From positions 3,614 through 67,613 of the forward strand of contig CAYHBS010000004.1 of assembly GCA_964354975.1 (NCBI GenBank): 64,000 bases of DNA. Direction: 5' to 3'. Made by a program: the position numbers and the translations under genes. The stretch is from an uncultured Candidatus Saccharibacteria bacterium (GTDB lineage: Bacteria; Patescibacteriota; Minisyncoccia; Ryanbacterales; HO2-45-13). Under the pieces are notes generated by a model that ran no database searches, was not told the DNA's origin, and worked only from the letters and a program-made list of their open reading frames with translations. Every line of letters starts with the position of its first letter. Positions within the stretch are counted from its first letter, which is position 1. This document shows positions 24,727 through 39,363 of this stretch, one piece after another.

Positions 24727-25452
24727 TTATTTTTCACCTGCGGCGTAGTTAAACGCCTCATGCCAGTTGATATTACGCGTGATATACATCACTCCCGAAA
24801 GTAATGCGAATAGGAGGAGCGAACCCGCGAGGAGCGCATACGTTTCAAGATGGAGCGTAATCAACAAATACGCATAAATAATTGTGAGGAGAAGTGCGAT
24901 GAGCATTCCCCCACTTTTTGTTTTGAGTATGAAATGACTATAGAGCGAAATCAGCGCCGTGGTCATGAGCGCAGCAATGATATACGCCGCTAAAAATCCA
25001 ATGTGCTCCATAAATGCGAGGAGTAATAGATAAAATTCCGCAAGTGAAAGCCCAACAAGTAAATATTGTATCGGGTGGAGCCGGAGGCGATAAAAAATTT
25101 CCATGAGGAAAAACGCAAGGAACGTAAGTACAATAAAAAGAATTGCATACTTCAGCACGCGATCAACAAGTCTATACACGCTTACACCGTTTTCATCAAA
25201 CCCCGGAAGTTTCCCGTGTATAAGCACTTTGGCCACGTCTCCACCTTGTCTCTCTACTGCGGCCCCTTGATATGCAATTCGGTCGTTGACCATTGACTGA
25301 ACAAATAGACTGGCAGCAAAACTCACAATCAAAATCACCCCAATCACGAAGATTTTTATAGCAAACGCAATATACGAAGCAAGCGGTGTGAGTGGCCCCA
25401 TGTACTTATGGTAACACCGGTAGGGCGGTAAAAGTAACGCCATCAAGGACAC
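24727..25452 (-). CDS. Polytopic inner-membrane protein, CreD-family-like
   Basis: Five to six predicted TM helices. The YRLVDRVLKYAILFIVLTF block resembles the CreD family. Real start may be MGPLTP at 25401. Confidence 0.5.
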   Translation of the reverse strand: MSLMALLLPPYRCYHKYMGPLTPLASYIAFAIKIFVIGVILIVSFAASLFVQSMVNDRIAYQGAAVERQGGDVAKVLIHGKLPGFDENGVSVYRLVDRVLKYAILFIVLTFLAFFLMEIFYRLRLHPIQYLLVGLSLAEFYLLLLAFMEHIGFLAAYIIAALMTTALISLYSHFILKTKSGGMLIALLLTIIYAYLLITLHLETYALLAGSLLLFALLSGVMYITRNINWHEAFNYAAGEK

Positions 25453-25870: not shown

Positions 25871-25902
25871 AAAAGGGGTAGCTGGATTCCGCTACCCCTT
25901 TT
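25871..25902. terminator. Bidirectional intrinsic terminator (aaaaggggtagc-tggattcc-gctacccctttt plus gttttttt) overlapping the RT stop codon
   Basis: 12 bp stem flanked by A-run and T-run. Confidence 0.65.
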
Positions 25903-26836
25903 GTTTTTTTCTCCTCCGCGCAGCTTTCCTCGCTACACGGTATGTATGCACTAGTCGTGTAAAGGTTTGATCGAAGGGTTCTTCCCGCATAATCCCAGAT
26001 ATGACGCCCATTCTTCCAGAAAGTTCAGAGAACCCTTCCCCAGTCTCTAGGAATTTTCTGAGAAGTTTTTTGGTCTTCCAGCGAAATTGTTGTGGAACAA
26101 AAATACGTCCTCCAAGTTCTAGTCCCACGCCATTGACCACTACTGGACCTTTCATCAAATCCCATACGTGCGTCTTTCGATGACTAATAGAAAATCCAGC
26201 GGATTCGATAATGGATCGAATGTTGCTCCGTTTTTTCTCTCCTATCACTTCTGCCGCAGAAAACACAAGATCATCGATATAGCGCGTATAGGTCATACCA
26301 TACCTCGCGACCACAGGGGCAAGCACTCGATCAAGTACTGCGCTCGCATAGATATTAAACAGGTCGGGCGATGCGGGGGCGCCAACTGCAAGTCCACCAG
26401 AGCATGATGCACAATAATTCTCTAGAAATGTGCGTGCCATCTCTACTTCGGTGTTTAGGGGGAGTTGTCCTTCCAATGAAAGTAGAATCTCCGCGAGCGT
26501 ATTGAGATTGATGGTATGATACGCATCACGCAAATCAAGGTGATAGATATATCGATTTTGACGATGACGCGCAACGTGTCGTGCCGGGTTAGCCCCTGGG
26601 CGCGCTCCCGTGGCAAACCGCAGATCGGCGGGTAGTGAACGTAAGTGAGAAATGAGGCGCTTGTGAAGTTGTCTCATCGATGTATTCGGAGCTTCGATAA
26701 GACGCTTTTTCCTCGTACCACTAAGTGGATTGATGTCGTTGTAAAGGAACCTCCGAAACTTCGGAGGTGTTTTTGTTCTGGGCAACAAATCTATCAGATA
26801 CATCTGAAACACCTCCTCTATCCTTGGTTTGGCCAC
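25892..26836 (-). CDS. Reverse transcriptase, retron-type RT domain only (314 aa, GTG start)
   Basis: RT motifs: KKRLIEAPNTSMRQL, NPARHV...YIYHLDLRDAYHTI (NAxxH/motif A-like), GLAVGAPASPDLFNIY, TYTRYIDDLVFS (YIDD), VVNGVGL (VTG-like). No maturase or endonuclease domains. Confidence 0.85.
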   Translation of the reverse strand: MAKPRIEEVFQMYLIDLLPRTKTPPKFRRFLYNDINPLSGTRKKRLIEAPNTSMRQLHKRLISHLRSLPADLRFATGARPGANPARHVARHRQNRYIYHLDLRDAYHTINLNTLAEILLSLEGQLPLNTEVEMARTFLENYCASCSGGLAVGAPASPDLFNIYASAVLDRVLAPVVARYGMTYTRYIDDLVFSAAEVIGEKKRSNIRSIIESAGFSISHRKTHVWDLMKGPVVVNGVGLELGGRIFVPQQFRWKTKKLLRKFLETGEGFSELSGRMGVISGIMREEPFDQTFTRLVHTYRVARKAARRRKKQKG

Positions 26837-27283
26837 ACTCTATCATACACGCGCAGCGAATGATACTTTTCAAGATTCGAGAGAATATCACTCCGCTTTG
26901 CAAATCCCGACGCCTCGGTTGGGGCATGTGTTTTGCAAATCAAAAACCGCCATACTGCGGTTTTTGAGTAAAACTTCTGGCTGCCATGGGTGGGCGCTCA
27001 TTGGCACCGAATAATCAGGGACATCAATACGTTAAATGTTGCTAATACAGAATAGAGCAGCTCTTTTTTGTAAATTGGGTCTCCTGCTAGTGGAAGTTGG
27101 AACTGCGCTTTATAACACAACATCCCTACTGATGGATTTTTTTGATTTACGTGTCACTATTACCTAGCCAACGTTTATATGGGTTTCTGCGGGTAAAATC
27201 TCTCAGGAATATTCCGTAGCTTACATAACCTCTATCTTTATACTATGCTAAAAATGTGATGAAGCTTCAATACATAAGCTTGA

Positions 27284-28522
27284 ATGAATAAGAAAAAAAA
27301 GGTGATGATCTTCGTTGACGGAGAATTCATCCCATCCTACAGTGGGGCGACAAATAGATTTCACTATTTATCTGACGCCCTTCAACGATATACAAATACA
27401 GAAGTTGTTGTCGTTGTGTCCGACCGTGGTTGGACAGACACAAAGCTAATTAGAAAAGAGCGATTTAGGACATATTTGGTTCGCTCTGACTTATTTAAAA
27501 ACATTGACTTTCTGTTCCATCTAGTAAACAGGGAGCAACCTCAGATACTACAATTTGCTAACCTTGAGCTTGCCGTTCAACTAGGCATCCCCTTATCAGT
27601 AATGGGTGGTCAACACTTGGTGTATGAGGCGCATTATGATGATTTGGAATTCGCTAAATCTCTTGGTGCACCCAAAAAACAATTAGATAGCGTAAGGGGT
27701 TTAATGCATCACTTCGGCATTTATTTTGATAAGATTATTTCCCTCAGTAAGGATGACCACCTTGTTAAATCAAGATTTGGGGTTAGCGCGTCTCGCATCG
27801 CTATAGTGCCGAGCGGAATCAGACTAGATGACTTTCCACATAGTTGTTTTAAAGCGACCTCAAAAAAAATAATATTTCTAGGGAATTATTATTATGCCGT
27901 CAATTTAGCGGCTCTGAAACTGATTAGGAATTCTGTTTATCCAAAATTATCTGAGAAAGGATATATTTTTTATATTATTGGTGACATTCCATCCAAGATA
28001 AAGAAATCACTTGAGAAAAAAAACTTCGTAATCGTCGGCAAACAAAGTACGCTAAATACATACTTCAGTAATTCATTGTGCGCCCTTTCACCCGTTGCTG
28101 CTGGGTCCGGGATGAGAATTAAGATACTTGACTATTTGAATGCGGGGCTACCTGTCATCACAACCAGCCAGGGATCGCGGGGGTTCCTAAATAGAAACTT
28201 ATTGATGATTGAGGATGACATTAATAAGTTTTCCGAAATTATAGAGCTCATTGCAAGGTCAACTTTCACCTCTAGATTATTATCTGAGGCAGGCAGAAGG
28301 TTTGTTAGAAAACATATGTCCTGGAGTGTGGTCGCACAAAGCATGTCTGAAGAGTACGATAAAATTCTCCATAAAAGGAGGGTTACAAAGATCAATGCCC
28401 TGAATAGAATAAGTCAGCTAACTGCTCGTGATCCCGCGTGGCTTAAAGAAGTCATCAAAAAGGGGCGTTTTCAGGGAGCGAAACCCCATCTTTCGAAAAA
28501 ATCATATATAGTACTAAATTGA
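27284..28522 (+). CDS. Glycosyltransferase family 1/4 (GT-B fold)
   Basis: C-terminal GT1 signature (AAGSGMRIKILDYLNAGLPVITT). 412 aa. Confidence 0.8.
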   Translation: MNKKKKVMIFVDGEFIPSYSGATNRFHYLSDALQRYTNTEVVVVVSDRGWTDTKLIRKERFRTYLVRSDLFKNIDFLFHLVNREQPQILQFANLELAVQLGIPLSVMGGQHLVYEAHYDDLEFAKSLGAPKKQLDSVRGLMHHFGIYFDKIISLSKDDHLVKSRFGVSASRIAIVPSGIRLDDFPHSCFKATSKKIIFLGNYYYAVNLAALKLIRNSVYPKLSEKGYIFYIIGDIPSKIKKSLEKKNFVIVGKQSTLNTYFSNSLCALSPVAAGSGMRIKILDYLNAGLPVITTSQGSRGFLNRNLLMIEDDINKFSEIIELIARSTFTSRLLSEAGRRFVRKHMSWSVVAQSMSEEYDKILHKRRVTKINALNRISQLTARDPAWLKEVIKKGRFQGAKPHLSKKSYIVLN

Positions 28523-29109
28523 TGAAATCAATCATCGCCCTTGAAGGGCTCCCCTGCTCAGGGAAAACTGAATTTTTTGAGAAGTTCAAAACCAGTGGGG
28601 TGGAAATGTTTTTCATTCCTGAGCTCTACATGGATGCCCGCGACAAAGTGAATGCTAAAGATGCCCGAGCATTATATACTGAGGCTGAGAAGGATAAGTT
28701 TAAAAAAGTGCCTAAAAATGCACATACCATTTTGTGTGATCGATCATATATTTCAACACTCGGATTTTCCTATGCTTATGGGAAAACATTTTGGGAATAC
28801 AGCACATATGACTACAACACTAAGTTTTTTTCTACAAATCACGATGCAATCCTAGTCCCAACGCATGTTATTGTATTTCGAATACCACCCGAAGAAAGTT
28901 TGAGAAGAAGCACAGAGAAGGGCAGAACTGAAGACGTAGCATATTGGCAGAATATTCAGTTTCTGAGTAATTTTGCAGCCTTTTACGAGTCAGATTTATT
29001 AAAAACGCTTATTAAGAGTAAAATAATATTTGTAGACGCATTAAATATCCATCCTGAGCAAGTTTACGGTCAAGTCGATCAATCGATTAGACAATATATC
29101 AGGAAGTGA
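28519..29109 (+). CDS. P-loop nucleoside/nucleotide kinase, deoxynucleoside kinase/thymidylate kinase-like
   Basis: IALEGLPCSGKT P-loop, a DRS motif (LCDRSYIS) and an Arg-rich lid (LRRSTEKGRTED). Confidence 0.55.
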   Translation: MMKSIIALEGLPCSGKTEFFEKFKTSGVEMFFIPELYMDARDKVNAKDARALYTEAEKDKFKKVPKNAHTILCDRSYISTLGFSYAYGKTFWEYSTYDYNTKFFSTNHDAILVPTHVIVFRIPPEESLRRSTEKGRTEDVAYWQNIQFLSNFAAFYESDLLKTLIKSKIIFVDALNIHPEQVYGQVDQSIRQYIRK

Positions 29110-29137
29110 TTATTACGATGTGAGCGGGTCATAATAA

Positions 29138-29992
29138 GTGTGTAGTAAAAATATGGAATCATTTAAAATTGTCCGCCATCTCGAAGAGTCTCATCAAGAG
29201 GAGATTAATCGTGACGCCGATATAGACCCAGAAGAAATTGCATTGCTAAAGACTTACTACTTGCCTGCGATTTTAGAAAATATACGATCAGGAAAATATG
29301 ACAGTGCAACGGTAATCTGCAGCGACAAGTTGCGCTCAAGCCGGACTGCTGACATCCTTCGGGAAGAACTGCAGCGTTATGGAGATATCCCCGTCAATCA
29401 GGAAACTGACGATCGGATCTCTGCTGAAATCCATGGGCGATATAAAACTGGAACAAATTCTGATAATCCTTTAATTGAACGTGCTAAAATGATTTTTTTA
29501 CATGAGGCATTCGAAAAGCACAATGTTTGGTATAGACACGGATCCGCTAGTAATGATGCGGGTGAAATTCTGTATCCTGAGTTGAATGAAATATTTGAAT
29601 CCCCTGGGGAAAATCAAATTGAATTAAATATTCGCATGTATCGATTTGTTTTGGATTTACTCCAGAGGATTGAAGAAAATCCGACAAATCTCTTCATCTT
29701 ATCTGCTCATCATGTAGTGATGTCCACCTTACTTGCACTTCAGCGCATTTCCGAAAAAGGTGGGCCTTTTATTAACATCCGGTACCACCCTCAGGGCTTA
29801 TTGTATGCGGATCAAAATATGGAAACTGAGGAAATGATCGGGGGTTGGGATAATTTTTACGATTATTACAAATCTCGAAACTATATTTTTGATATTGATG
29901 TTCAAAAACTCAAACAGATAAGAGAGATAATCCAGGCTGAGCTGGATCTTTGCCTAGCGAGCTACACTCAACACTACGGAAATAGACTCTAG
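29138..29992 (+). CDS. Hypothetical protein, possible histidine-phosphatase (phosphoglycerate-mutase-like) fold
   Basis: N-terminal VRH and C-terminal LSAHHV motifs weakly resemble the RHG/SHG catalytic motifs. Confidence 0.3.
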   Translation: MCSKNMESFKIVRHLEESHQEEINRDADIDPEEIALLKTYYLPAILENIRSGKYDSATVICSDKLRSSRTADILREELQRYGDIPVNQETDDRISAEIHGRYKTGTNSDNPLIERAKMIFLHEAFEKHNVWYRHGSASNDAGEILYPELNEIFESPGENQIELNIRMYRFVLDLLQRIEENPTNLFILSAHHVVMSTLLALQRISEKGGPFINIRYHPQGLLYADQNMETEEMIGGWDNFYDYYKSRNYIFDIDVQKLKQIREIIQAELDLCLASYTQHYGNRL

Positions 29993-31665
29993 TCGTTTCC
30001 CTTAATGATCTCGGATTTGAGTAGTTTCCCATTGTAGATTAAACCCTTGGTATAATTTATTTTTTCGTAAAGACTTATCGTATCCTCGAGACTATTTGTC
30101 AGTGGCATGCCCTTAAAATTCAGCGATGTGTTGAGCAATAGTGCAATTCCGGTTTTATGGAAAAACAAACTGATTAAGTCACACAGAAATGGATTATCTT
30201 CCTTTGTGATAGTCTGAACTCGCGCACTCCCGTCTACATGTAGAGCCCCTGGTATTTTTGATTGAACTTCGCTCTTAACTTCATACTTGTAAAGCATAAA
30301 AGGAGATTTTGCAGGTCCAGTAAAGTATTCGTTTAACTTACTTTCCAGCACAATCGGAGCGAGCGGCCTGTAGGATTCGCGCTCTTTGATTCTCTCACTT
30401 AACAAGTCTCTTACTTTTTTACTATCCGGTCTTGCTATGAATGACCTGTTGCCTAGCGCACGTGGCCCTACTTCTGATCGTCCATTATGCACAAGTAATA
30501 TGCCATCAGACAGCAATATTTCGATGCATTTCTCAATTGTCTCCGATGAATATTCATATACATGCACCCCCTCGCCCAAGTAGGGAAAACGTGCACCTAT
30601 TCGTCCCCCTAAGACATTGTTTATCAAAATTGACAATGACCCAAGCGATTGACCTGAATCGTCGCAACAGGGCGCCACAAAGTGAATTTTGTCTTTATAA
30701 AATCCTGCGACGCGAGAATTAAGTTCGAGATTTAAACCCACTCCTCCAGACATAATAATTCCATCAACATTTTTTGCGTGTTGATCAATCACTGAAGAAA
30801 TGTCATCCATCTTGTGATTTACAAAGAATTCCTGGACAGTCGCTGCAAAATCTGTTGCTGAATTGGTTGGCCTTAGTGCTTGACCCTTTAATATCCTTAA
30901 TGGACTACTCTCAAAAATCTGGTAAATATCCTCGTACTTTGCAATTTCTATTTCTCGGTAAATCTGCTCCAAGACATCATAATACTCGACACGCACTTTA
31001 CCCAGTCCAGCTAGTGCCATCATTTTGCCATCTGGTGGATTGTGACTATGAAGCTCCGCTCCGTAAAGAAACATAGCACACGCGCCATAAGTTTTCCCGG
31101 AGATGTGCCCGGCTAAATCAATATTTAGCCTAGTTATAGAATTCCCTCTTCCTAAATAGTACGAGTTACACTCATTCATTTTTGTCAGTGGGTCCACGTC
31201 CCCACCACCATCAGAAGTGACAATAAGGACATTTTCAATTCCTGTGGTTAGATATATCCCCGCATGAGATAAGTGATGATTCGTAATCAAAACGTTACGC
31301 CTTAAACCAAAAAAATTAATTTCTTTCCAAAAGGCTGTCTTTAAGGTTTGCTCACCATAATCAATAATGTCTGCTTCCTGCAAAAAGGGATTGTTAAAGG
31401 TGGTCATAGACCAGTACTTCACACTTTCTATTGACTCTCCTAGTATATTGAGGCCGTATCTCACAAGGTATTCCATTTCATCCACAGCGCAAGCTTTTTT
31501 CTTTTCGCGAAACACTCTTTCAGCCTCTAATACCAAACAGATGTTTCTGCCAAACGCAAAAGATGCGGATGAGTCATGAAAATTAAACGAAATACTGCAG
31601 AACAACTCGCCGTCAATATTGGACGCGTGGGACAGTCCAAATTTTTCTGTACCGCTGTTATCCAA
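29989..31665 (-). CDS. Carbamoyltransferase (NodU/CmcH family)
   Basis: N-terminal LSHASNIDG...FHDSSAS and HLSHAGIY blocks typical of NodU/CmcH O-carbamoyltransferases. 558 aa. Confidence 0.8.
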   Translation of the reverse strand: MDNSGTEKFGLSHASNIDGELFCSISFNFHDSSASFAFGRNICLVLEAERVFREKKKACAVDEMEYLVRYGLNILGESIESVKYWSMTTFNNPFLQEADIIDYGEQTLKTAFWKEINFFGLRRNVLITNHHLSHAGIYLTTGIENVLIVTSDGGGDVDPLTKMNECNSYYLGRGNSITRLNIDLAGHISGKTYGACAMFLYGAELHSHNPPDGKMMALAGLGKVRVEYYDVLEQIYREIEIAKYEDIYQIFESSPLRILKGQALRPTNSATDFAATVQEFFVNHKMDDISSVIDQHAKNVDGIIMSGGVGLNLELNSRVAGFYKDKIHFVAPCCDDSGQSLGSLSILINNVLGGRIGARFPYLGEGVHVYEYSSETIEKCIEILLSDGILLVHNGRSEVGPRALGNRSFIARPDSKKVRDLLSERIKERESYRPLAPIVLESKLNEYFTGPAKSPFMLYKYEVKSEVQSKIPGALHVDGSARVQTITKEDNPFLCDLISLFFHKTGIALLLNTSLNFKGMPLTNSLEDTISLYEKINYTKGLIYNGKLLKSEIIKGND

Positions 31666-31688
31666 AAAAATATTTAATTGATCCTTTT

Positions 31689-32153
31689 TTAGCTCACGCC
31701 AATAAATGGATCCTCTGATTCAGCAAAAAACTTTATGTTCTCCCAGAACGTGTTCTTCAGCCTCTTTGGAAATACCTTCAAATCCTGCAAGTCGTCCTTT
31801 GTGAACCACTTTGCCTCTTCTACTGCCCCATTTGGATCAAGATCAATATGTGCTTCATTTAACGCTTGCTCATGAGACATTTTTGCCAACCAGAATGTTT
31901 CAAGACAAATATTTTCAATCTCTCCCTCGATACCGTGAAATTCTTGGAGATAAAGAAGTTTTAGTATTTCGACGTGCATGCCCGTCTCCTCAAGAACTTC
32001 TCGCTTCGCACATTCAACAATGTTTTCAATCTCATATTCCCAACTCCCCCCGGGGGCATACCAAAACTTAGTGCCCTTATTTCTAACTAGCAAAATCTTG
32101 TTCTCGTCAGGCTTGTAAGTTATAACACGAGCTATTGGTTTAATTTTCTTCAT
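31689..32153 (-). CDS. NUDIX hydrolase
   Basis: Nudix box GGSWEYEIENIVECAKREVLEETG. Confidence 0.8.
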   Translation of the reverse strand: MKKIKPIARVITYKPDENKILLVRNKGTKFWYAPGGSWEYEIENIVECAKREVLEETGMHVEILKLLYLQEFHGIEGEIENICLETFWLAKMSHEQALNEAHIDLDPNGAVEEAKWFTKDDLQDLKVFPKRLKNTFWENIKFFAESEDPFIGVS

Positions 32154-32310
32154 AATTAACGGCCGTGAAGCCTTAGTGATTAATATAGAAACTTATCTTC
32201 TTAGTATGCTATCTCAAATACATGCTTTCTGCATCTATTCTTGCTCAAAGAACGTTTGAGAATACATATTAGCTCGCTTCCCCAATGGATGGTAGAACTG
32301 CGATGAGCTC

Positions 32311-32352
32311 CACAATCAATAATAAAGAAATAGTCTCGCACATGCGAGGCTA
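32311..32352. repeat. Long near-perfect hairpin (aataaagaaatagtctcgca / tgcgagGctatttctttatt)
   Basis: About 20 bp stem with one bulge, immediately left of the direct-repeat copy. Confidence 0.5.
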
Positions 32353-32361
32353 TTTCTTTAT

Positions 32362-32383
32362 TTTGTTGCGGGACCGGGATTTG
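32362..32383. repeat. Direct repeat copy A, tttgttgcgggaccgggatttg (22 bp perfect, with about 50 bp of imperfect extension)
   Basis: Identical 22-mer at 37315-37336. Confidence 0.6.
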
Positions 32384-32553
32384 ATTGGAACCAAGTCTTC
32401 GGGCACATACGGGAAATCGCTATATTCAGTAAAGAAGTGCTCATGCCCGCGTGAAGGGGTGAGGGTGCAGATTTGACGGTATGGGTATTTAAAAAGAATG
32501 CTATTGATAGGCATATAGCATTCTCCTTTAAAGCTCTATCATTCAAATCGTGT

Positions 32554-32958
32554 TCACTGTGGGTATTTCCTGAAACAGTCTGATTTATTTTGCTGAAGCT
32601 GTGCGTCATTCTTATCATGCGCATCAGTAAATGCCGCCGCCCCCACACAGGTGCCACCGCCATCTACTTTACAATCTTCATACATTCCAACTAACTGTCT
32701 CCCCCATTCCTGCCAGTCAATTTCCGCGTTAGTTATGCAAGTATTCAATAATTGTTTAGCCTTCTCTTCAGTACGTGACTCCGTGAATGATTTATTAATT
32801 TGCTCCTGTCTTTCCTGCTCGATTTTTATTAGTTGCTGCTTTTCAATAGACCTTTGCTTGTTTACTTCACTTGCGAAGTAAAAACCGCCCAAAATAATAC
32901 TCGCGACAATAATCGTGACTGGTAATGACAGGTTATTAAATCTTGCGAAGATATCCAA
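32554..32958 (-). CDS. Secreted/membrane-anchored Cys-rich protein (DUF1311/LprI-like, tentative)
   Basis: N-terminal TM and a C-terminal domain with four Cys. Confidence 0.35.
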   Translation of the reverse strand: MDIFARFNNLSLPVTIIVASIILGGFYFASEVNKQRSIEKQQLIKIEQERQEQINKSFTESRTEEKAKQLLNTCITNAEIDWQEWGRQLVGMYEDCKVDGGGTCVGAAAFTDAHDKNDAQLQQNKSDCFRKYPQ

Positions 32959-32963
32959 ATTTT

Positions 32964-33950
32964 TTAGTTATCTTCAAATAAGCTCCCTGCAATCCAATCG
33001 TCGGTTCCGGTTGCTGTTCTGTTTAGTCCTCCACTGACCGTAGCGTGGGGTCCCCAGGATAAATTACCGTTCCCACCAGTTACTGATGAGCCTCCGCTAC
33101 GAGCTTCATTGAATACTCCGCCGCAAACGGCAGCAGAGCCCCCACTGGCAAGATTATCATTTCCTCCGGCAACCGACGCATAATCTGCGGTTGTTTTGTT
33201 TCTCAATCCTCCGCTAATAGTTGAGCTGTTTCCAATAACATTATTTCCTTCTCCGCCAGACACCGATGCATATACACCTGTAGTAGAATTATATCTTCCG
33301 GCTCCAATCCACGACATTAAACCATTGGCAGAATTTCTCCATCCGCCCGTGATAGAGGAAAGCTCTCCAACAGCGTGGTTTTCACTACCACCAACAATTG
33401 TTGAGTTCGCACCGACCAATTGGTTTTGTCGACCAGTAGTAAAGCCGCCATAGCTGATATATTCATGCTCCGGCCCAACAACAAGATTGTGCGAACCGTC
33501 TCGAGAAAATAGGCCGGTGCTTTGCTCATTGTAACCTATAATTAAGTTTCCTAAACCATTCTTTGTTGCCGTACTTCCAGCGCCATTTGTAAGGTGTATG
33601 TTGCATCCTTCAAAATACACATCATTACCATCAACTCTCACACAGGGGATGGATGTTCCGGCAATACCTTGTGGTCCTTGCTCTCCTTGTGAGCCCGCTT
33701 CACCTTGAGGGCCTTGCGCCCCTGTTGCCCCCTGAATATTCCAGACCACGAGCTTTTCTCCCTCTCTGCAAACCGTACGTCTAAAGCCGTCACCTATCAT
33801 CTGCATCGTTCCGTCTCTTTTTACACATGCAGCAAGAGTTTCTCCGCCCACTTGCCCATAAGTTTGAGCAGCAAACATGAGAATTAAGATAACAATACCC
33901 CCGGCAACAAATGAGGGCATATTGATTTGAGAATATTTTGAATAGTTCAT
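32964..33950 (-). CDS. Collagen-like triple-helix repeat protein with C-terminal SGG/NG-repeat beta-helix (phage tail-fibre-like)
   Basis: G-x-y run (GATGAQGPQGEAGSQGEQGPQGIAGT). Repeated xSGGxxN units. N-terminal signal/TM. Confidence 0.6.
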   Translation of the reverse strand: MNYSKYSQINMPSFVAGGIVILILMFAAQTYGQVGGETLAACVKRDGTMQMIGDGFRRTVCREGEKLVVWNIQGATGAQGPQGEAGSQGEQGPQGIAGTSIPCVRVDGNDVYFEGCNIHLTNGAGSTATKNGLGNLIIGYNEQSTGLFSRDGSHNLVVGPEHEYISYGGFTTGRQNQLVGANSTIVGGSENHAVGELSSITGGWRNSANGLMSWIGAGRYNSTTGVYASVSGGEGNNVIGNSSTISGGLRNKTTADYASVAGGNDNLASGGSAAVCGGVFNEARSGGSSVTGGNGNLSWGPHATVSGGLNRTATGTDDWIAGSLFEDN

Positions 33951-34607
33951 GATAGTTTTGATATTAACTAATAATTTTTGATAATTTTACCTCGGCAACA
34001 CAAAACCCACCGCTAGGCGATGGCTTGCGCCACCTACCACTCTTTCGAGCGGTAACCACTGCTGGTGCTCCTAAACGATGGGTTTAGTAGCCAGCAGTGG
34101 TTTTTTGCCATGCCACGAGAAAGGTTGTGGTTTAGGCACACAATACATGTATCTATTTAGTTGTACATCACAATCGTATACTTGCGCTACATACCTGTAA
34201 AGAGTGGGACTAATTGTTAAGCGTATTTATTTCCTCTTGATTATTGGACAAGATTATGCTAAGTTAAAAATAGAAAGTACTTAAGAAAATTATTTTTCCT
34301 GCACAAACGTTCTCGACTGTAATCTACGTATAGCTTGATGCACTCCGAGGGCCAAAGTGACAATATCCCTGAAATATGGGAGGCCATGTTTTCGGCCAGG
34401 CTTCAGTTCAATGCGTGTTATCACTTGGGGAACGATGGAAAAATTTATATTTTTGTGATTACTTGGCGAGATGAATTGACGGGCACCAATCGGTGATACC
34501 CGCGAATCGCGACTAGATGAGTATGTGCAATGCACTCATTTGTGAGGCGTTGCTTTGTTATTCGTCACATCCCGTCAGAGAGTCACAACGAAGCAACGGC
34601 ATCAGAA

Positions 34608-34877
34608 ATGGTGCCGTTATTCGTTTTTCTACTCCTCTTAATGCTCACAATTGCAGAATGTAAGGAAATATTGGGAGAGGATGTGTCATCAATATCTGAT
34701 GATGAAATTTTAGTTGTTCGTGATGCATTATATGCGCTGGCAGAGCTTGCTATAGATAAACAGTCGAATACTAACCACTTTGATTTTCATGCTGGTTTTG
34801 GGCAAAAGGACGGCATCCCCCCGCCCAAAACCGACATGAGAACCGGGAGATGCCATGACCCAAAACCAGGAGAATAA
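34608..34877 (+). CDS. Hypothetical exported or lipoprotein-like protein
   Basis: MVPLFVFLLLLMLTIAEC signal-like N-terminus. Start trimmed from the ORF at 34530. Confidence 0.3.
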   Translation: MVPLFVFLLLLMLTIAECKEILGEDVSSISDDEILVVRDALYALAELAIDKQSNTNHFDFHAGFGQKDGIPPPKTDMRTGRCHDPKPGE

Positions 34878-35394
34878 AAATTGCGCTAAAGCGATAAAAA
34901 TACCATATATTATGATTCCTACAGCAGTTGCAATGCGCAAAGATATTTCCCAAGGAGCGAAATTAACATACGGCATTATTTACACGCGACAGAATGGGAC
35001 GAAACCAGCCTACGCATCCCAAAAAAATATGGCTTTTCATATCGGCGTCTCTGAACGAACTATTCGAAAATATTTACGGGCATTAATAGCTCTGAATTTG
35101 ATATATCAGAAGCGCTTTGGACTAACGAGAACCAATAGATACTGGGTAAAGGACCGCACGAAACCGTCCTCTCATGATAGGAACTCTACTTCGGCTCTAC
35201 ATAGGTATGAACCTTCCGGTCATAGTAATAGTAAGGGAAATAGTAAAGCAGTAAGTCAGCTGCCCTTACATAAATCAGAAGGAACATGGAGGGAATACCG
35301 TATTCATAGACACCCTGATGGTAATATCAAGATTTGTGTTGACAGCGAATGGAAGATATTCGCGGGTGACGAACGCGACATTATATGGAAATAA
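34855..35394 (+). CDS. Winged-helix HTH protein (phage replication-organizer/DnaD-like N-terminal domain, tentative)
   Basis: IKIPYIMIPTAV...FHIGVSERTIRKYLRALIALNLI HTH pattern. Confidence 0.45.
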   Translation: MTQNQENKNCAKAIKIPYIMIPTAVAMRKDISQGAKLTYGIIYTRQNGTKPAYASQKNMAFHIGVSERTIRKYLRALIALNLIYQKRFGLTRTNRYWVKDRTKPSSHDRNSTSALHRYEPSGHSNSKGNSKAVSQLPLHKSEGTWREYRIHRHPDGNIKICVDSEWKIFAGDERDIIWK

Positions 35395-35786
35395 GAATGA
35401 GCAAGACACACATCGGGCCAGAAAACTCACAAAAAAAATCCCAACTTACAGTTAAACAGAAAGAGTGGGTTTCCGAAACCATTGCCACAAAAAATCCAAC
35501 GGAAGCCGCCTATCGAGCCTATGATGTTAAAGACCGACATAATGCATCAGTTATTGCTTCTGAAAACCTGTTAAAACCTTACTTACGAGAGGCATTAAAT
35601 GAAATGCTGGAAAACCATAATCTGCATTTAAATGACACCGTGCAAGAACATAAATGGCTCATCGCACAACGTGAGCATATTGCTACAAAGTTCGATGCAA
35701 TTAAAGAACACTACGAATTGCTCGGTCTACACACAAAGGACAGAGTCAATACAGGAATAAATATTGCATTAGTGGTCAGAAAATGA
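35385..35786 (+). CDS. Phage terminase small subunit-like protein
   Basis: LTVKQKEWVSETIATKNPTEAAYRAYDVKD resembles the TerS (Terminase_2) N-terminal helix pattern. Confidence 0.45.
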   Translation: MEIRMSKTHIGPENSQKKSQLTVKQKEWVSETIATKNPTEAAYRAYDVKDRHNASVIASENLLKPYLREALNEMLENHNLHLNDTVQEHKWLIAQREHIATKFDAIKEHYELLGLHTKDRVNTGINIALVVRK

Positions 35787-35811
35787 AACAGATGTAATGA
35801 TAAAATAATAT

Positions 35812-37404
35812 ATGCAGACTCCAAAAGGAATCATCTATTGCAGGGTGTCTTCTCAAGACCAGGTATCTGGGACTTCTTTAGATAGCCAACAAAAAGCATG
35901 TTTGGAATATGCAGAAACAAAAGGTATTAAAGTTGAGAAAATATTTGTCGAAAAAGGAGAGTCAGCCACTGCCGCAAATAGAGCGGAACTGATAAAAGCA
36001 TTGAACTTTTGTGGAGACAGAAAGGGTCAGATTTCGGCATTTATTGTTTGGAAGATTGATAGATTTGCGCGAAATACAACTGACCACTTTGGCTTACAGG
36101 CACAATTAATTAAATTTGGGACATCATTACATTCTGTTACCGAACCTATCGATAAAACTCCTATCGGAAAGATGATGGAAACCATGCTAGCCGGATATGC
36201 TCAGCTTGAAAATGATATTAGGCGGCAAAGATGCGAGGGGGGTATGCAGCGCAAAATTGCAGAAGGCATTCGACCGTGGAAACCACCACTGGGCTATGCC
36301 GTTCCACCAAAGACTGAGCGGAGGAAAACCAAGGCAGATGTGCGTGACCCCGAGCGTTTTCTGCTTGTACAAAAAACATTAAAGGCATATGCCACAGGGG
36401 CTTATTCCATAGCTAATTTAACCCAGGAAGCGACTAAACGGGGTCTTCGCACTCGTACTGGGAAGCCTATGCGCATTCAGCTTCTAGAGCGACTATTAAC
36501 AGATAAGTATTATGCGGGAATATTAACTGACCCCTGGACCAAGAAAGAGTACCCCGGACTACATGAACCAATGATAACCCTTGAGGAACACCAGCACATC
36601 CAACTCGTAAAATCTGGCCTATCCAACAATGCAATTAATACACGAACCTATGCTCATCCAGATTTTCCACTTCGAGGGCTTTTGATTTGTGTGTGTGGCG
36701 TGAAATTGACCGCTGGTTGGACGAAAGGAAGAAACAACAAATACCCCTATTATCACTGTAAACAAAAAGGATGCGTGCACTTTGGACATGCAATTCCTAA
36801 ACATAGGCTGGAGGAAAAGTTTCTTATTTTTCTCAAGCGCATTACCCCTCAGGAGCATTTCATAAAACTTTTTGAAACCATTGTGCTAGATGTATGGCGA
36901 AACAAACATCAATCACACACACAACAACGCATGCATTATGAAGCGGAAATCAAAAGATTAAATTCGCAACGAGAGCGATATATTGAAATGCGCGCAAATG
37001 GAGAGATTAACCGCGAGGAATTTAAAATCTATAGTGAACGCTTAGAAAACCAGATAACGGGTCTTACTATTTCGAGAAACGAAGAGAATATTGAAGAGTT
37101 AGACATGGGGACATTACTCTCCTATACAACACAATTCATGCGTAATTTATCTCGGCAGTGGCAGGATATGCAGGATATAAAACAAAAACAGCGGCTCCAG
37201 AAATTGGTTCTACCGGAAGGGATTATGTTTGATAAATCCACCGGAGAGCTTGGAACCGCTGTTTTGTCGCCTGTTTTCAGGATGAATCAGGTATTTGAGG
37301 ATGGCGAATCCGACTTTGTTGCGGGACCGGGATTTGCACCCGGGTCTGGAGGTTCGCACATTCCCAATATTTCTAATGGGGCTGGACTATACCATCTTCC
37401 ATAA
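35812..37404 (+). CDS. Large serine recombinase (resolvase/invertase N-terminal catalytic domain plus recombinase and zinc-ribbon/coiled-coil domains)
   Basis: YCRVSSQDQ catalytic Ser motif, DRFARN, recombinase domain and a Cys cluster. 530 aa. Confidence 0.9.
   Translation: MQTPKGIIYCRVSSQDQVSGTSLDSQQKACLEYAETKGIKVEKIFVEKGESATAANRAELIKALNFCGDRKGQISAFIVWKIDRFARNTTDHFGLQAQLIKFGTSLHSVTEPIDKTPIGKMMETMLAGYAQLENDIRRQRCEGGMQRKIAEGIRPWKPPLGYAVPPKTERRKTKADVRDPERFLLVQKTLKAYATGAYSIANLTQEATKRGLRTRTGKPMRIQLLERLLTDKYYAGILTDPWTKKEYPGLHEPMITLEEHQHIQLVKSGLSNNAINTRTYAHPDFPLRGLLICVCGVKLTAGWTKGRNNKYPYYHCKQKGCVHFGHAIPKHRLEEKFLIFLKRITPQEHFIKLFETIVLDVWRNKHQSHTQQRMHYEAEIKRLNSQRERYIEMRANGEINREEFKIYSERLENQITGLTISRNEENIEELDMGTLLSYTTQFMRNLSRQWQDMQDIKQKQRLQKLVLPEGIMFDKSTGELGTAVLSPVFRMNQVFEDGESDFVAGPGFAPGSGGSHIPNISNGAGLYHLP
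37315..37336. repeat. Direct repeat copy B, tttgttgcgggaccgggatttg, inside the 3' end of the serine recombinase gene
   Basis: Identical to 32362-32383. Confidence 0.6.
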
Positions 37405-37733
37405 TTGGAAGTCCTCATTATAGTCTCTGAACCTTTCCTATCTATCAGATAAGACTTGGCTGCTGATTGTCGAATCTCTGTTTTTTTTTGCCATCACGCC
37501 CACTCTTTCGAATCACGTTGTGGCAAACAAAGCTCTCACGAGTTTCCAGCAGTTTCGAAGATTTTTCCGTCGCACATTACTGAGCGAGGTCACAATTATT
37601 TATGAGCCTCCCGAGGTACTACTCCTCTATCCCGCGGCTTACAGATTACCACAATATTACAACTGTGACAATCTTGGCACATACAAAATAACTGTGAATA
37701 TTATCGAACCAACGATATGATATAATATATATT

Positions 37734-38438
37734 ATGGCTAAAACACTGGCGCGCTCACGTGCAATACAATTACGCATAGAAGGAAAAAGTGTCAAGGAAA
37801 TTGCGCGATTGTTACAGGTTTCTACAAGCTCCGTAAGTATCTGGTGCCGCGACATTCAACTCTCATCTACTCAGTCTGAATTCCTTCGGTTAAGGCAAAT
37901 TGCATCAGGTTTCAGGGGTCGCCAAATCGGTGCCGACGTAAATAGAAAGAAGAAGCAATTGCGCATCGAAAAAGCACGCATTTACGCAGCAACGCTGTGG
38001 AAACAACATGGAGATGATCCTCTGTTTTTATTGGGCATTGGCTTGTATTGGGGGGAGGGAAGCAAAACTGATAAGTTGAGTTTTTCCAATTCGGATCCTG
38101 CTATGGTGCGATTTATGATGCTTTGGTTACAAAAATACCTCGGCGTATCGAAAAGTGATTTTGTCGCACGCGTCTATATAAACAATATTCACCATAAGCG
38201 CGCTACGGTGGTTCAACAATATTGGATACACTATCTCACATTGCCGGAAAGACAATTTCGATCTACGTGCTATATTTATTCAGTCCCTAAAAAACGGTAC
38301 GACAATCATGATATATATTTTGGTATACTTGCATTACGTGTTCGCCGTAGTACAGTATTGAAATATATTGTGCTAGCATTGCTCGCACGAGTAAAGGATG
38401 TCGGGGTAGCTCAGTTGGTTAGAGCGGAGCACTCATAA
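37734..38438 (+). CDS. HTH plus single-motif LAGLIDADG-like endonuclease (tentative)
   Basis: N-terminal HTH (GKSVKEIARLLQVSTSSVSIWCR). LLGIGLYWGEGSK resembles the LAGLIDADG motif. The 3' end overlaps the tRNA. Confidence 0.4.
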   Translation: MAKTLARSRAIQLRIEGKSVKEIARLLQVSTSSVSIWCRDIQLSSTQSEFLRLRQIASGFRGRQIGADVNRKKKQLRIEKARIYAATLWKQHGDDPLFLLGIGLYWGEGSKTDKLSFSNSDPAMVRFMMLWLQKYLGVSKSDFVARVYINNIHHKRATVVQQYWIHYLTLPERQFRSTCYIYSVPKKRYDNHDIYFGILALRVRRSTVLKYIVLALLARVKDVGVAQLVRAEHS

Positions 38439-38473
38439 AGCTCAGGTCGGCAGTTCGATCCTGCCCCCCGGCA
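38400..38473 (+). tRNA. tRNA with CAT anticodon (Met, or Ile2 if modified)
   Basis: Manual fold: acceptor gtcgggg/ccccggc, D-arm gctc-agttggtta-gagc, anticodon loop ctCATaa, T-arm ggcag-ttcgatc-ctgcc, discriminator A. One A-A mispair at 31-39. No encoded CCA. Confidence 0.75.
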
Positions 38474-38501
38474 CAAGTATAAAAAAGCCATTTGGCGTTT
38501 T

Positions 38502-39050: not shown

Positions 39051-39087
39051 ATGTCCATGGTACCAACGGACCGAAAGAAGTGAAAAC

Positions 39088-39261
39088 TTATCTTAAGCTC
39101 CTTTTGTGTTCTTCAATTTCTTTATCGAGCCTCTCTCGTTGCTGTTGCATTTCCTTTAACTTAGCTTCCTTCTCTTTTTTTTGCGCTTCCTGGGCTTCTC
39201 TAAGCCGCCTTTCCGCCTCGGCTACTTTTTTCGCCGAATCAGTCGATGTATCTTTTTCCAT
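39088..39261 (-). CDS. Small coiled-coil protein (57 aa), hypothetical
   Basis: Manual minus-strand translation MEKDTSTDSAKKVAEAERRLREAQEAQKKEKEAKLKEMQQQRERLDKEIEEHKRSLR. Below the ORF-track cutoff. Confidence 0.25.
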   Translation of the reverse strand: MEKDTSTDSAKKVAEAERRLREAQEAQKKEKEAKLKEMQQQRERLDKEIEEHKRSLR

Positions 39262-39329
39262 ACGATATGAATTAATTATACGGATAATATTTTTGCAACC
39301 TTATATATAGTATAACAAATAGTGAACAT

Positions 39330-39363
39330 GTGAAGTGCATATCCCATGGGATATGCACTTCAC
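39330..39363. repeat. Perfect palindrome gtgaagtgcatatccc-atg-gggatatgcacttcac (16 bp arms)
   Basis: Self-complementary. No flanking T-run. Confidence 0.5.

What the first reader, a model, noticed from the sequence alone, without database searches (positions are those of the whole stretch)
27284..32153. Lower-GC cluster: glycosyltransferase, dNK-like kinase, phosphatase-like ORF, NodU/CmcH carbamoyltransferase and NUDIX hydrolase
Three plus-strand genes (GT-B glycosyltransferase, a deoxynucleoside/thymidylate-kinase-like P-loop kinase and a possible histidine phosphatase) converge on a carbamoyltransferase and a NUDIX hydrolase. All are visibly more AT-rich than the core genes. Kinase, NUDIX, glycosyltransferase and carbamoyltransferase together is the enzyme set expected for making or tailoring a modified nucleotide or nucleoside (or a carbamoylated glycoconjugate). 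The cluster is embedded in a phage-like island, so a DNA/nucleotide hypermodification or nucleoside-antibiotic-like pathway is a possibility.
Basis: inference. Interest (0 to 1): 0.55.

Follow-up and report, generated by a model that had tools for sequence, protein, structure and literature searches.

The report
Mobile glycosyl-carbamoyl small-molecule enzyme cassette
The five low-GC genes are a real, strictly conserved and horizontally mobile enzyme cassette from uncultivated bacteria that probably builds a carbamoylated sugar derivative of a nucleotide-like small molecule; it is uncharacterised, and it is not a phage DNA-modification cluster.

Summary
Five intact genes sit at the stated coordinates: a GT4 glycosyltransferase, a TMPK/dNK-like kinase, a divergent histidine phosphatase, a TobZ/NodU-type O-carbamoyltransferase and a NUDIX hydrolase. 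Their GC is 39.7%, against 48.6±1.2% for the surrounding chromosome.

They are not a chance neighbourhood. The same five genes recur at 33-73% protein identity in about ten other metagenomic lineages (Patescibacteria, Saccharibacteria, Omnitrophota), once in a different gene order, in otherwise unrelated surroundings. The glycosyltransferase and kinase are fused in 40 of 60 glycosyltransferase homologues. Variant cassettes keep glycosyltransferase + kinase + phosphatase + NUDIX and swap the tailoring enzyme.

All five proteins look soluble. No phage carries the kinase or the phosphatase, and no base-hydroxylating enzyme is present, so phage-type DNA hypermodification is not supported.

The best reading, which is inferred, is a cytoplasmic pathway. 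It glycosylates a phosphorylated acceptor, most likely a nucleoside monophosphate, then carbamoylates the sugar and trims or re-adds phosphates. The acceptor and the biological role are unknown. Candidate roles are an antimetabolite or defence function, or glycan tailoring.

The "phage-like island" is a separate ~5 kb satellite-like element inserted in an adjacent tRNA. The cassette lies outside that element.

The parts
27284..28522 (+). GT4-family retaining GT-B glycosyltransferase (412 aa), with a conserved C-terminal tail that forms the linker in glycosyltransferase::kinase fusions
   Evidence: Pfam Glyco_trans_1_4 3.4e-13. AlphaFold pLDDT 91. Foldseek top hits are GlgM, PimB', sucrose-phosphate synthase, MshA, PglA and BshA. 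The invariant G274/G276/R278/K280 and the E310-x7-E318 motif are present. 40 of 60 homologues are ~611-622 aa fusions to the kinase.
28522..29109 (+). P-loop kinase of the thymidylate-kinase / deoxynucleoside-kinase superfamily (195 aa; the mechanical ORF starts at TTG 28519)
   Evidence: The family profile matches PDB thymidylate kinase at 4e-5 and deoxynucleoside kinase at 5e-5. PHROG 761 'thymidylate kinase' scores 1.7e-11. NCBIfam dTMP kinase scores 30.8 bits, below the 83 cut-off. The EGLxxxGKT P-loop and the DRS motif are invariant. The start overlaps the glycosyltransferase stop as TGATG. The kinase domain of the fusions is 29% identical, E 1e-19.
29153..29992 (+). Divergent histidine-phosphatase-superfamily enzyme (279 aa; the mechanical ORF starts at GTG 29138)
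   Evidence: There is no Pfam hit for the window protein. The AlphaFold model has pLDDT 85.7. Foldseek matches cofactor-dependent phosphoglycerate mutases and YKR043C with prob 1.0. R13-H14, SSDKxRSxxT (R66) and H191 are invariant. 7 of 10 members hit His_Phos_1, best E 0.0012. The family has 131 representatives, and fusions of the types HP::GT2 and His_Phos_1::APH::HP exist.
29989..31665 (-). TobZ/NodU/CmcH-type O-carbamoyltransferase (558 aa; Kae1-like plus YrdC-like domains)
   Evidence: Pfam Carbam_trans_C 1.7e-50 and Carbam_trans_N 1.5e-15. PDB sequence hits are NovN 3.4e-34, GdmN about 1e-28 and TobZ 6e-28. The motifs HHxxH (130-134), DGGGD (152-156), CCDDxGQSxG (333-342), GPRALGNRSF and LNTSLN are invariant. 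The stop codon shares CTAG with the phosphatase stop.
31689..32153 (-). Small MutT/NUDT1-like NUDIX hydrolase (154 aa)
   Evidence: Pfam NUDIX 4.9e-13. The REVLEETG Nudix box is invariant. PDB hits are Arabidopsis NUDT1 and MutT-type enzymes, 3e-6. It is 63-73% identical across cassettes, and 40% identical (E 2e-29) to the NUDIX of a distant glycosyltransferase-kinase cassette.
26950..27283 (.). Low-GC upstream region of the glycosyltransferase-kinase-phosphatase operon (promoter not identified)
   Evidence: The intergenic region is 41% GC, and the low-GC block starts near 27.0 kb. Promoter-like matches are not above the chance expectation.
32154..32361 (.). Upstream region of the NUDIX-carbamoyltransferase operon. 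It ends at a perfect hairpin (32321-32362) that abuts the duplicated tRNA 3' end
   Evidence: GC is 37%. Inverted repeat I1 and direct repeat D4 come, and the sequence.

Best explanation
The five genes form one self-contained, horizontally mobile enzyme cassette that works in the cytoplasm on a small molecule.

Shown: the five genes travel together, in fixed or shuffled order, across unrelated genomic settings. The glycosyltransferase and kinase are translationally coupled here and physically fused in most relatives. All five keep their catalytic motifs, and none has a membrane segment.

Inferred mechanism: the conserved core follows the 'phosphorylated acceptor' logic of GT4 enzymes such as sucrose-phosphate synthase, MshA and GlgM. 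In that logic a phosphorylated acceptor is glycosylated and a dedicated phosphatase later removes the phosphate. The core here is a GT4 glycosyltransferase, an NMP-kinase-like kinase, a phosphatase and a NUDIX hydrolase.

The kinase belongs to the thymidylate/deoxynucleoside-kinase superfamily. The NUDIX is MutT-like, the type that converts NTP to NMP plus PPi. A related cassette adds a nucleoside-diphosphate kinase. The acceptor is therefore most likely a nucleoside monophosphate.

The proposed steps are as follows. NUDIX supplies the NMP. The glycosyltransferase adds a hexose from an NDP-sugar. The carbamoyltransferase O-carbamoylates a sugar hydroxyl using carbamoyl phosphate plus ATP, as TobZ and NodU do. 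The fused or coupled kinase re-phosphorylates the modified NMP, which housekeeping kinases would not accept. The histidine phosphatase releases the nucleoside form or detoxifies it.

The product would be a carbamoyl-glycosyl nucleotide or nucleoside. Its role is unknown. The mobile and defence-rich neighbourhoods suggest an antimetabolite used in conflict with phages or other cells.
For: Conservation:
- The same five genes occur at GT 47-52%, kinase 33-44%, phosphatase 51-66%, carbamoyltransferase 50-55% and NUDIX 63-73% identity in L002-L012 and L015-L016. Their flanks are unrelated to one another.
- L011/L012 hold all five in a different order.
- L017 lacks only the carbamoyltransferase.

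Coupling:
- The genes show TGATG and CTAG overlaps.
- The glycosyltransferase::kinase fusion occurs in L006 and in 40 of 60 glycosyltransferase homologues.

Related cassettes:
- One has NUDIX (40% identical)/GT-kinase-NDK-epimerase/HAD. Another has CYTH/GT-kinase-epimerase/HAD.
- A third has GT-kinase with GT2, an APH kinase and a canonical His_Phos_1.
- Fusions GT2::NUDIX, HP::GT2 and His_Phos_1::APH::HP exist.

Enzyme identities.

Solubility: no hydrophobic segment typical of a membrane span.

Mobility:
- L003 and L004 are 99% identical from the recombinase gene through the cassette and unrelated upstream.
- There is a copy on a Siphonobacter conjugative element.
- The cassette is low-GC and lies next to a tRNA.

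Defence neighbours: a type IIG restriction-modification enzyme with a DrmD-like helicase, methyltransferases with a type IV restriction enzyme, the candidate PDC-S02, and a retron-type reverse transcriptase.

Precedents:
- The tunicamycin cluster combines a glycosyltransferase, a histidine phosphatase (TunG), a pyrophosphatase (TunN) and an epimerase (PMC6965331, PMC6105854).
- Viperins are linked or fused to NMP-kinase-family CMPK2, which supplies their nucleotide substrate (bioRxiv 10.1101/2023.09.13.557418).
Against: - No substrate has been measured, and the order of steps is inference.
- The kinase scores far below the dTMP-kinase equivalog cut-off, so its acceptor could be something other than a nucleotide.
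- The structural neighbours of the glycosyltransferase include lipid- and glycan-directed enzymes (PimB', PglA, WaaG) as well as small-molecule ones.
- Relatives of the fusion sit beside GT2, GT9 and a polysaccharide pyruvyl-transferase, which suggests glycan synthesis.
- The HAD phosphatases in related cassettes are of a sugar-phosphatase type.
- Several copies lie inside ribosomal-protein operons of Patescibacteria. That placement fits a constitutive housekeeping role better than an inducible weapon.
- A kinase (NMP to NDP) and a NUDIX acting on the same nucleotide could form a futile cycle unless their specificities differ.
- No PADLOC defence model matches except a weak NUDIX candidate.
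Confidence: 0.4

Rival explanations
1. Cell-envelope glycan tailoring. The cassette adds a side-chain sugar to a cytoplasmic-face glycan intermediate (teichoic-acid-like polymer, secondary cell-wall polymer or capsule). It then phosphorylates and O-carbamoylates that sugar, changing surface chemistry, for example phage receptors. NUDIX and the phosphatase would manage the NDP-sugar or NDP pool.
For: - Glycosyltransferase::kinase fusions in L023-L025 are flanked by GT9, GT2 and a polysaccharide pyruvyl-transferase.
- Foldseek neighbours include PimB', PglA, HepE and WaaG.
- One source annotates a homologue as 'involved in cell wall biosynthesis'.
- From my own knowledge, not tested here: the Pseudomonas aeruginosa LPS core region combines the GT4 enzyme WaaG, heptose kinases and a NodU-type carbamoyltransferase, and colanic-acid clusters carry a NUDIX (GDP-mannose mannosyl hydrolase).
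- Mobile-element-borne surface modification is common.
Against: - No copy of the five-gene cassette carries a flippase, polymerase, polyprenyl-phosphate transferase or any membrane protein.
- All five proteins lack membrane segments.
- The kinase has an NMP-kinase fold rather than the protein-kinase-like fold of known glycan kinases.
- NDK, CYTH and an orthologous NUDIX in related cassettes point to nucleotide handling.
Confidence: 0.22
2. Biosynthesis of a non-nucleotide soluble glycoside, such as a compatible-solute-like or aminoglycoside-like compound. The kinase phosphorylates a sugar, polyol or acid. GT4 glycosylates it, as in the sucrose-P, glucosylglycerate or MshA systems. The carbamoyltransferase decorates it and the phosphatase releases it.
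For: - The top structural neighbours GlgM, sucrose-phosphate synthase, MshA and BshA all act on small, mostly phosphorylated acceptors.
- Phosphatases (histidine phosphatase or HAD of the Cof type) are invariably present.
- The L018 variant has an MFS exporter, a Gfo/Idh/MocA oxidoreductase and a PLP enzyme next to the phosphatase and GT2::NUDIX.
- APH/fructosamine-kinase partners and fusions occur.
- The closest homologues of the carbamoyltransferase decorate sugars of antibiotics: TobZ and NovN.
Against: - The kinase's only detectable relatives are nucleotide and nucleoside kinases.
- NUDIX and NDK have no obvious role in such a pathway.
- No enzyme is present that would make an aglycone.
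Confidence: 0.2
3. Polymer-level nucleic-acid modification: DNA or RNA hypermodification as in phages, or a self/non-self mark.
For: - The enzyme set superficially parallels the T4-type logic of NTP pyrophosphatase, dNMP kinase and glycosyltransferase (established knowledge).
- DNA methyltransferases and restriction genes neighbour several copies.
Against: - No homologue of the phosphatase, kinase or glycosyltransferase was found in IMG/VR or INPHARED phages.
- Known DNA glycosylation needs a hydroxylated base made by a ThyA or TET homologue (PMC13326640), and none is present in any copy.
- The top 50 Foldseek hits contain no DNA glucosyltransferase.
- The cassette sits in cellular chromosomes, with no polymerase or DNA-binding partner.
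Confidence: 0.05
4. Xenobiotic or antibiotic inactivation cassette. The glycosyltransferase, kinase and carbamoyltransferase each modify an incoming toxin.
For: - Mobile-element carriage, including a conjugative element.
- Association with APH-type kinases.
- Location in ribosomal operons.
Against: - Strict co-conservation of five enzymes, including two hydrolases, is not how resistance determinants are organised.
- A glycosyltransferase-kinase fusion implies sequential steps on one substrate.
- There is no similarity to known resistance families.
Confidence: 0.06

Closest known systems
Tunicamycin-type nucleoside-antibiotic gene cluster (tunA-N)
   Same: It combines a glycosyltransferase (TunD), a histidine phosphatase (TunG), a small pyrophosphatase (TunN) and an NDP-sugar epimerase (TunF). 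The genes are translationally coupled, and TunF/G/N are assigned to precursor supply (PMC6965331, PMC6105854).
   Different: The cassette has no radical-SAM TunB, dehydratase TunA, acyltransferase, deacetylase or ABC exporter. The tunicamycin cluster has no carbamoyltransferase and no NMP-kinase-like kinase. Sequence homology to the Tun proteins was not tested.
GT4 'phosphorylated acceptor then phosphatase' systems (sucrose-phosphate synthase/phosphatase, MshA in mycothiol synthesis, GlgM)
   Same: The glycosyltransferase model's best structural matches are these enzymes. A dedicated phosphatase is always co-encoded, and fusions of the phosphatase to a glycosyltransferase exist.
   Different: Sequence identity is only 13-16%. 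Those systems lack a kinase fused to the glycosyltransferase, a NUDIX and a carbamoyltransferase. The acceptor here is unknown.
TobZ / NovN / GdmN / NodU O-carbamoyltransferases
   Same: The two-domain architecture and the conserved metal- and nucleotide-binding motifs are the same. The enzyme presumably makes carbamoyl-AMP and transfers the carbamoyl group to a hydroxyl.
   Different: E-values are 1e-28 to 1e-34, and the NodU equivalog scores 138 bits against a cut-off of 1000. The substrate and pathway differ. Cyanophage 'Nol-like' carbamoyltransferases are only about 27% identical.
Viperin-CMPK2 (nucleotide-modifying enzyme linked or fused to an NMP-kinase-family kinase)
   Same: A thymidylate-kinase-related kinase is genetically linked or fused to an enzyme that modifies a nucleotide, and it feeds that enzyme (bioRxiv 10.1101/2023.09.13.557418). 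The context is one of conflict or immunity.
   Different: The modifying enzyme here is a glycosyltransferase plus a carbamoyltransferase, not a radical-SAM enzyme. No antiviral activity has been shown.
Phage pre-replicative nucleotide modification (T4 dCTPase + dCMP hydroxymethylase + dNMP kinase + DNA glucosyltransferases)
   Same: The logic matches: an NTP pyrophosphatase, a modifying enzyme, a dedicated NMP kinase and a glycosyltransferase (established knowledge).
   Different: The cassette is not in a phage. It has no base-hydroxylating enzyme. The glycosyltransferase is not of a DNA-glucosyltransferase family. No phage homologues exist.

Membership tests
Phage DNA hypermodification cluster | Encoded in a phage or prophage genome | tested here: not met
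   The flanks are chromosomal core genes: rpoB/C, gyrB, pheT, ligA, gatA. There are no phage structural genes, and the phosphatase, kinase and glycosyltransferase have no relatives in IMG/VR or INPHARED.
Phage DNA hypermodification cluster | An enzyme that installs a reactive hydroxyl on a base (dNMP hydroxymethylase/ThyA homologue, or TET/JBP) | tested here: not met
   None of the five proteins, and no conserved neighbour in about ten cassette copies, has such a domain. The requirement is taken from PMC13326640.
Phage DNA hypermodification cluster | A glycosyltransferase related to DNA glucosyl- or arabinosyl-transferases | tested here: not met
   The top 50 Foldseek PDB hits are GT4 enzymes that act on small molecules or glycans.
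Nucleoside-antibiotic biosynthetic cluster (tunicamycin-like) | Glycosyltransferase + histidine phosphatase + nucleotide pyrophosphatase in one operon | tested here: met
   compared with PMC6965331.
Nucleoside-antibiotic biosynthetic cluster (tunicamycin-like) | Scaffold-forming enzymes (radical SAM, dehydratase), an exporter, and a product that contains a nucleoside | tested here: not met
   No such genes occur in any five-gene copy. The product itself is not testable with these tools.
Histidine phosphatase superfamily (284-aa ORF) | dPGM-like fold with a catalytic RH(G) His, two Arg and a second His | tested here: met
   Foldseek prob 1.0 to dPGMs. R13, H14, R66 and H191 are invariant. The motif reads RHL rather than RHG.
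Histidine phosphatase superfamily (284-aa ORF) | Pfam His_Phos_1 above the gathering score | tested here: not met
   The window protein has no hit. 7 of 10 relatives hit only weakly, best E 0.0012.
Thymidylate kinase (equivalog) | NCBIfam TIGR00041 at or above 83.25 bits; P-loop plus DR(Y/F) motif | tested here: not met
   The score is 30.8 bits. The P-loop and a DRS motif are present. The protein belongs to the superfamily but is not a bona fide Tmk.
TobZ/NodU/CmcH carbamoyltransferase | Carbam_trans_N plus Carbam_trans_C domains with HHxxH/D/D metal ligands | tested here: met
   The NodU equivalog threshold is not met: 138 bits against 1000.
NUDIX hydrolase | Nudix box GX5EX7REUXEEXGU | tested here: met
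   Pfam scores 49.7 bits against a cut-off of 21.1. REVLEETG is invariant. The G-to-E spacing is one residue longer than the consensus (read).
Known anti-phage defence system (PADLOC-DB 2.0) | A match to a system's protein models | tested here: not met
   Only the NUDIX hits a single-gene candidate, PDC-S07, at 6.4e-8. The other four have no hit.
Retron (with the neighbouring reverse transcriptase) | The reverse transcriptase co-occurs with the cassette as its effector | tested here: not met
   A reverse transcriptase homologue is found only in the window's own contig, and in none of the other cassette loci.

The most novel reading that the evidence does not exclude
The cassette is a previously unrecognised chemical-defence or chemical-warfare module of ultra-small uncultivated bacteria. 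In this reading it converts a normal nucleotide into a glycosylated, carbamoylated nucleotide analogue. The analogue would poison phage or competitor polymerases, or other nucleotide-using enzymes, much as viperin products do. The NUDIX and phosphatase would feed the pathway and protect the producer. The widespread glycosyltransferase::NMP-kinase fusion would then define a new class of nucleotide-glycosylating enzymes.
Probability: 0.15. Interest if true: 0.85.

Novelty: new variant of a known kind. Interest (0 to 1): 0.52.

Why it matters
All five enzyme families are familiar. This combination is not matched by any NCBIfam, PADLOC or PHROG system model, and four full-text literature searches found nothing. 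That includes the much larger glycosyltransferase::thymidylate-kinase-like fusion family to which the cassette belongs. The cassette is compact (4.9 kb) and self-contained, and it moves between Patescibacteria, Omnitrophota and, in a related form, a cultivated Bacteroidota. It is therefore an easy target for heterologous expression. If the product is a modified nucleotide, it would add a new chemistry (glycosylation plus carbamoylation) to the short list of nucleotide-based antimetabolites and signals. If it is a glycan decoration, it would reveal surface chemistry in bacteria that cannot yet be grown.

Tried and rejected
- E. coli genome searches with the cassette and its flank found nothing, so the source is not an enterobacterium despite a creD fragment.
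- Scans of viral contigs with the phosphatase and glycosyltransferase alignments found no relatives. Scans of phage genomes with the phosphatase and kinase also found none.
- A plasmid search with the glycosyltransferase gave only distant generic glycosyltransferases.
- I first supposed that the island had split creD, with creC on the far side. This was rejected: the far-side gene is an amidase.
- I tested whether the large serine recombinase mobilises the cassette in this window. It does not: the 22-nt direct repeats bound a separate 5 kb element that excludes the cassette. No further copy of that repeat exists.
- I tested whether the retron-type reverse transcriptase belongs with the cassette. 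This was rejected. No Rfam family matches its upstream region.
- Literature searches for this gene combination, for glycosyltransferase-thymidylate-kinase fusions and for LOOT RNA gave nothing relevant.
- A cluster-member look-up gave no organism names.
- The promoter and terminator scan was not above chance.

Full report
**1. The observation**

- Pfam assigns 27284-28522(+) to GT4-type glycosyltransferases.
- 29989-31665(-) matches both carbamoyltransferase domains, and 31689-32153(-) matches NUDIX.
- 28519-29109(+) matches thymidylate kinase/AAA_28 weakly.

The 284-aa ORF has no Pfam hit. An alignment of its ten database relatives shows an invariant N-terminal RH, an SSDKxRSxxT motif and a later invariant His.
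- Its AlphaFold model has pLDDT 85.7.
- The model matches cofactor-dependent phosphoglycerate mutases and other histidine phosphatases, with Foldseek probability 1.0.
- Seven of the ten relatives weakly hit His_Phos_1.

The composition shift is large. The cassette is 39.7% GC, against 48.6±1.2% in equal-sized windows elsewhere (z = -7.3), and third codon positions show the same shift.

The rest of the window is an ordinary bacterial chromosome: rpoB/C, gyrB, pheT, ligA, gatA-like amidase, type IV pilus genes and secD. The source record is labelled a Patescibacteria MAG.

**2. One unit, not a chance neighbourhood**

Exact-sequence and homology look-ups recovered the same five genes in about ten further lineages. 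They come from groundwater-type metagenomes, Omnitrophota and Saccharibacteria MAGs.

A tblastn table shows parallel divergence:

| Protein | Identity across copies |
|---|---|
| Glycosyltransferase | 47-52% |
| Kinase | 33-44% |
| Phosphatase | 51-66% |
| Carbamoyltransferase | 50-55% |
| NUDIX | 63-73% |

The flanks of these copies are unrelated. They include restriction-modification and DISARM-like helicase genes, methyltransferases, a repressor, a histidine kinase and ribosomal-protein operons.

Several further results support a single functional unit:
- In L011/L012 the five genes are present in a different order, inserted between rplE and rpsN.
- In L017 only the carbamoyltransferase is missing.
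- L003 and L004 are 99% identical from the start of a serine-recombinase gene through the cassette, and unrelated upstream. This shows recent mobility.
- Within the window, the glycosyltransferase stop and kinase start overlap (TGATG), and the convergent phosphatase and carbamoyltransferase genes share one CTAG for both stop codons.

**3. The wider family**

Of the 60 closest glycosyltransferase homologues, 40 are proteins of about 611-622 aa in which the glycosyltransferase is fused to the same kinase domain. The glycosyltransferase's conserved C-terminal tail is the linker.

More distant glycosyltransferase-kinase pairs sit with:
- an orthologous NUDIX (40% identity), a nucleoside-diphosphate kinase, an SDR epimerase and a HAD phosphatase (L021);
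- a CYTH/cupin protein, an epimerase and HAD phosphatases (L019);
- GT2, an APH-type kinase and a canonical His_Phos_1 (L013, and a Siphonobacter conjugative element, L022).

A full HMM search finds 131 representatives of the phosphatase family. They include HP::GT2 and His_Phos_1::APH::HP fusions. One variant has a GT2::NUDIX fusion beside an MFS transporter.

The conserved core is thus glycosyltransferase + kinase + phosphatase + NUDIX. The carbamoyltransferase is one of several interchangeable tailoring modules.

**4. The enzymes**

- **Glycosyltransferase.** The model (pLDDT 91) is a standard retaining GT4 GT-B fold with the EX7E motif. Its best structural matches are GlgM, PimB', sucrose-phosphate synthase, MshA, PglA and BshA. 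Many of these glycosylate small phosphorylated acceptors, whose phosphate a dedicated phosphatase later removes.
- **Kinase.** Its only detectable relatives are thymidylate and deoxynucleoside kinases. It has the EG..GKT P-loop and a DRS motif, but it is far below the dTMP-kinase equivalog threshold.
- **Carbamoyltransferase.** It keeps all the motifs of the TobZ/NovN/GdmN family.
- **NUDIX.** It is a small MutT/NUDT1-like enzyme.

None of the five has a membrane segment.

**5. Most likely mechanism (inferred)**

I propose a cytoplasmic pathway on a phosphorylated small acceptor, most likely a nucleoside monophosphate.
- NUDIX makes the NMP.
- GT4 adds a sugar.
- The carbamoyltransferase decorates the sugar.
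- The coupled kinase re-phosphorylates the modified NMP.
- The histidine phosphatase releases or detoxifies the nucleoside form.

There are two precedents. The tunicamycin cluster has a glycosyltransferase, a histidine phosphatase, a pyrophosphatase and an epimerase (PMC6965331, PMC6105854). Viperins are linked or fused to an NMP-kinase-family kinase (bioRxiv 10.1101/2023.09.13.557418).

I give this model 0.4. No step has been measured, and the evidence for a nucleotide acceptor is indirect.

**6. Rivals**

- **Envelope-glycan tailoring (0.22).** Relatives of the fusion have GT2, GT9 and pyruvyl-transferase neighbours, and some structural neighbours are glycan-directed. Against it, the cassette lacks any membrane or lipid-carrier machinery and has a nucleotide-kinase fold.
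- **A non-nucleotide glycoside (0.20).** This fits the GT4-plus-phosphatase logic and the MFS/oxidoreductase variant. It leaves NUDIX, NDK and the kinase family unexplained.
- **Phage-type DNA hypermodification (0.05).** This is disfavoured. The kinase, phosphatase and glycosyltransferase have no phage homologues. No base-hydroxylating enzyme is present, which known pathways require (PMC13326640). The glycosyltransferase does not resemble DNA glucosyltransferases.
- **A resistance cassette (0.06).** This does not explain the strict five-gene conservation.

**7. Context in this window**

The "phage-like island" is a distinct ~5 kb element (32384-37314) bounded by exact 22-nt repeats. The repeats are the 3' end of a tRNA-Met(CAT) gene on the minus strand. 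That gene is interrupted by a group I intron.

The element carries a large serine recombinase, a small-terminase-like protein, a replication-initiator-like HTH protein, a collagen-like repeat protein and a LOOT RNA. This is a satellite-like layout, not a prophage.

The cassette lies immediately outside the element, next to the tRNA's original terminator hairpin. On the other side is a retron-type reverse transcriptase with host-like GC, which is absent from every other cassette locus.

**8. Verdict**

The cassette and the larger glycosyltransferase::kinase fusion family are uncharacterised. I rate this a new variant of a known kind, a small tailoring or biosynthetic cluster built from known enzyme families. 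Interest is moderate, and a direct experiment could test it.

Noticed in passing
window 25892-26836 (-), upstream 26837-27100: A stand-alone retron-type reverse transcriptase of 314 aa. Its best PADLOC hits are RT_other and RT_outgroup, and the NCBIfam St85-like model scores below its cut-off. The upstream region is structured (fold z = -2.3) but has no Rfam match and no obvious effector gene. The reverse transcriptase is not linked to the cassette elsewhere.
   Followed up: partly
window 32384-37314, repeats 32362-32383 and 37315-37336: A ~5 kb integrative element bounded by exact 22-nt direct repeats and inserted in the 3' end of a tRNA. It carries a large serine recombinase, a small-terminase-like protein, a replication-initiator-like HTH protein, a 328-aa collagen-like/beta-helix surface protein and a small membrane protein. 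This looks like a phage-satellite-like element in a Patescibacteria genome.
   Followed up: partly
window 34019-34138 (-): A full-length match to the Rfam LOOT RNA (87 bits against a gathering score of 46) lies inside the 5 kb element. The papers library held nothing useful on this family.
   Followed up: no
window ~37318-37636 (-): A tRNA-Met(CAT) gene with an initiator-like C1/A72 mismatch is interrupted in the anticodon loop by a group I intron (Rfam 76.6 bits). ARAGORN finds the tRNA only after in-silico splicing. The serine-recombinase ORF runs into the tRNA's 3' end.
   Followed up: yes
window 24727-25452 (-): A creD-like ORF matches only the C-terminal third of the CreD profile (positions 287-428 of 428). 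It is either a truncated gene or a short membrane protein.
   Followed up: no
window 38400-40510: A cluster of small features: tRNA-Met (38400-38474); tRNA-Asp (40250-40322), whose last 19 nt are repeated at 40491-40509; a LAGLIDADG endonuclease ORF (39578-40270) that ends inside the tRNA-Asp gene; and an indole-3-glycerol-phosphate-synthase fragment (38502-39050). The repeat suggests another integration scar.
   Followed up: no
window 61000-64000: A second low-GC stretch (38-43% GC) at the window's end contains an N6/N4 DNA methyltransferase (62470-63561). It is possibly another acquired island.
   Followed up: no
L023-L025 (8992-12753), L011/L012, L006, L021: Glycosyltransferase-kinase cassettes repeatedly sit inside or right after ribosomal-protein operons of Patescibacteria: directly after rplE in three independent contig sets, and after fusA in another. 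The reason for this placement is unexplained.
   Followed up: partly
P0121, P0125, P0129, P0193 (no locus): The divergent phosphatase family occurs in multi-domain proteins: canonical His_Phos_1 + APH/fructosamine-kinase-like domain + this phosphatase (~760 aa), and this phosphatase + GT2 (606 aa). These link it to a wider network of kinase, phosphatase and glycosyltransferase domains.
   Followed up: partly
L003 vs L004, position ~6863: Two contigs from different samples are 99% identical from just inside a serine-recombinase gene through the whole cassette, and unrelated upstream. One has methyltransferases plus a type IV restriction-like gene there. The other has a type IIG restriction-modification enzyme plus a DrmD-like helicase. 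This suggests recombinase-associated shuffling of defence modules.
   Followed up: partly
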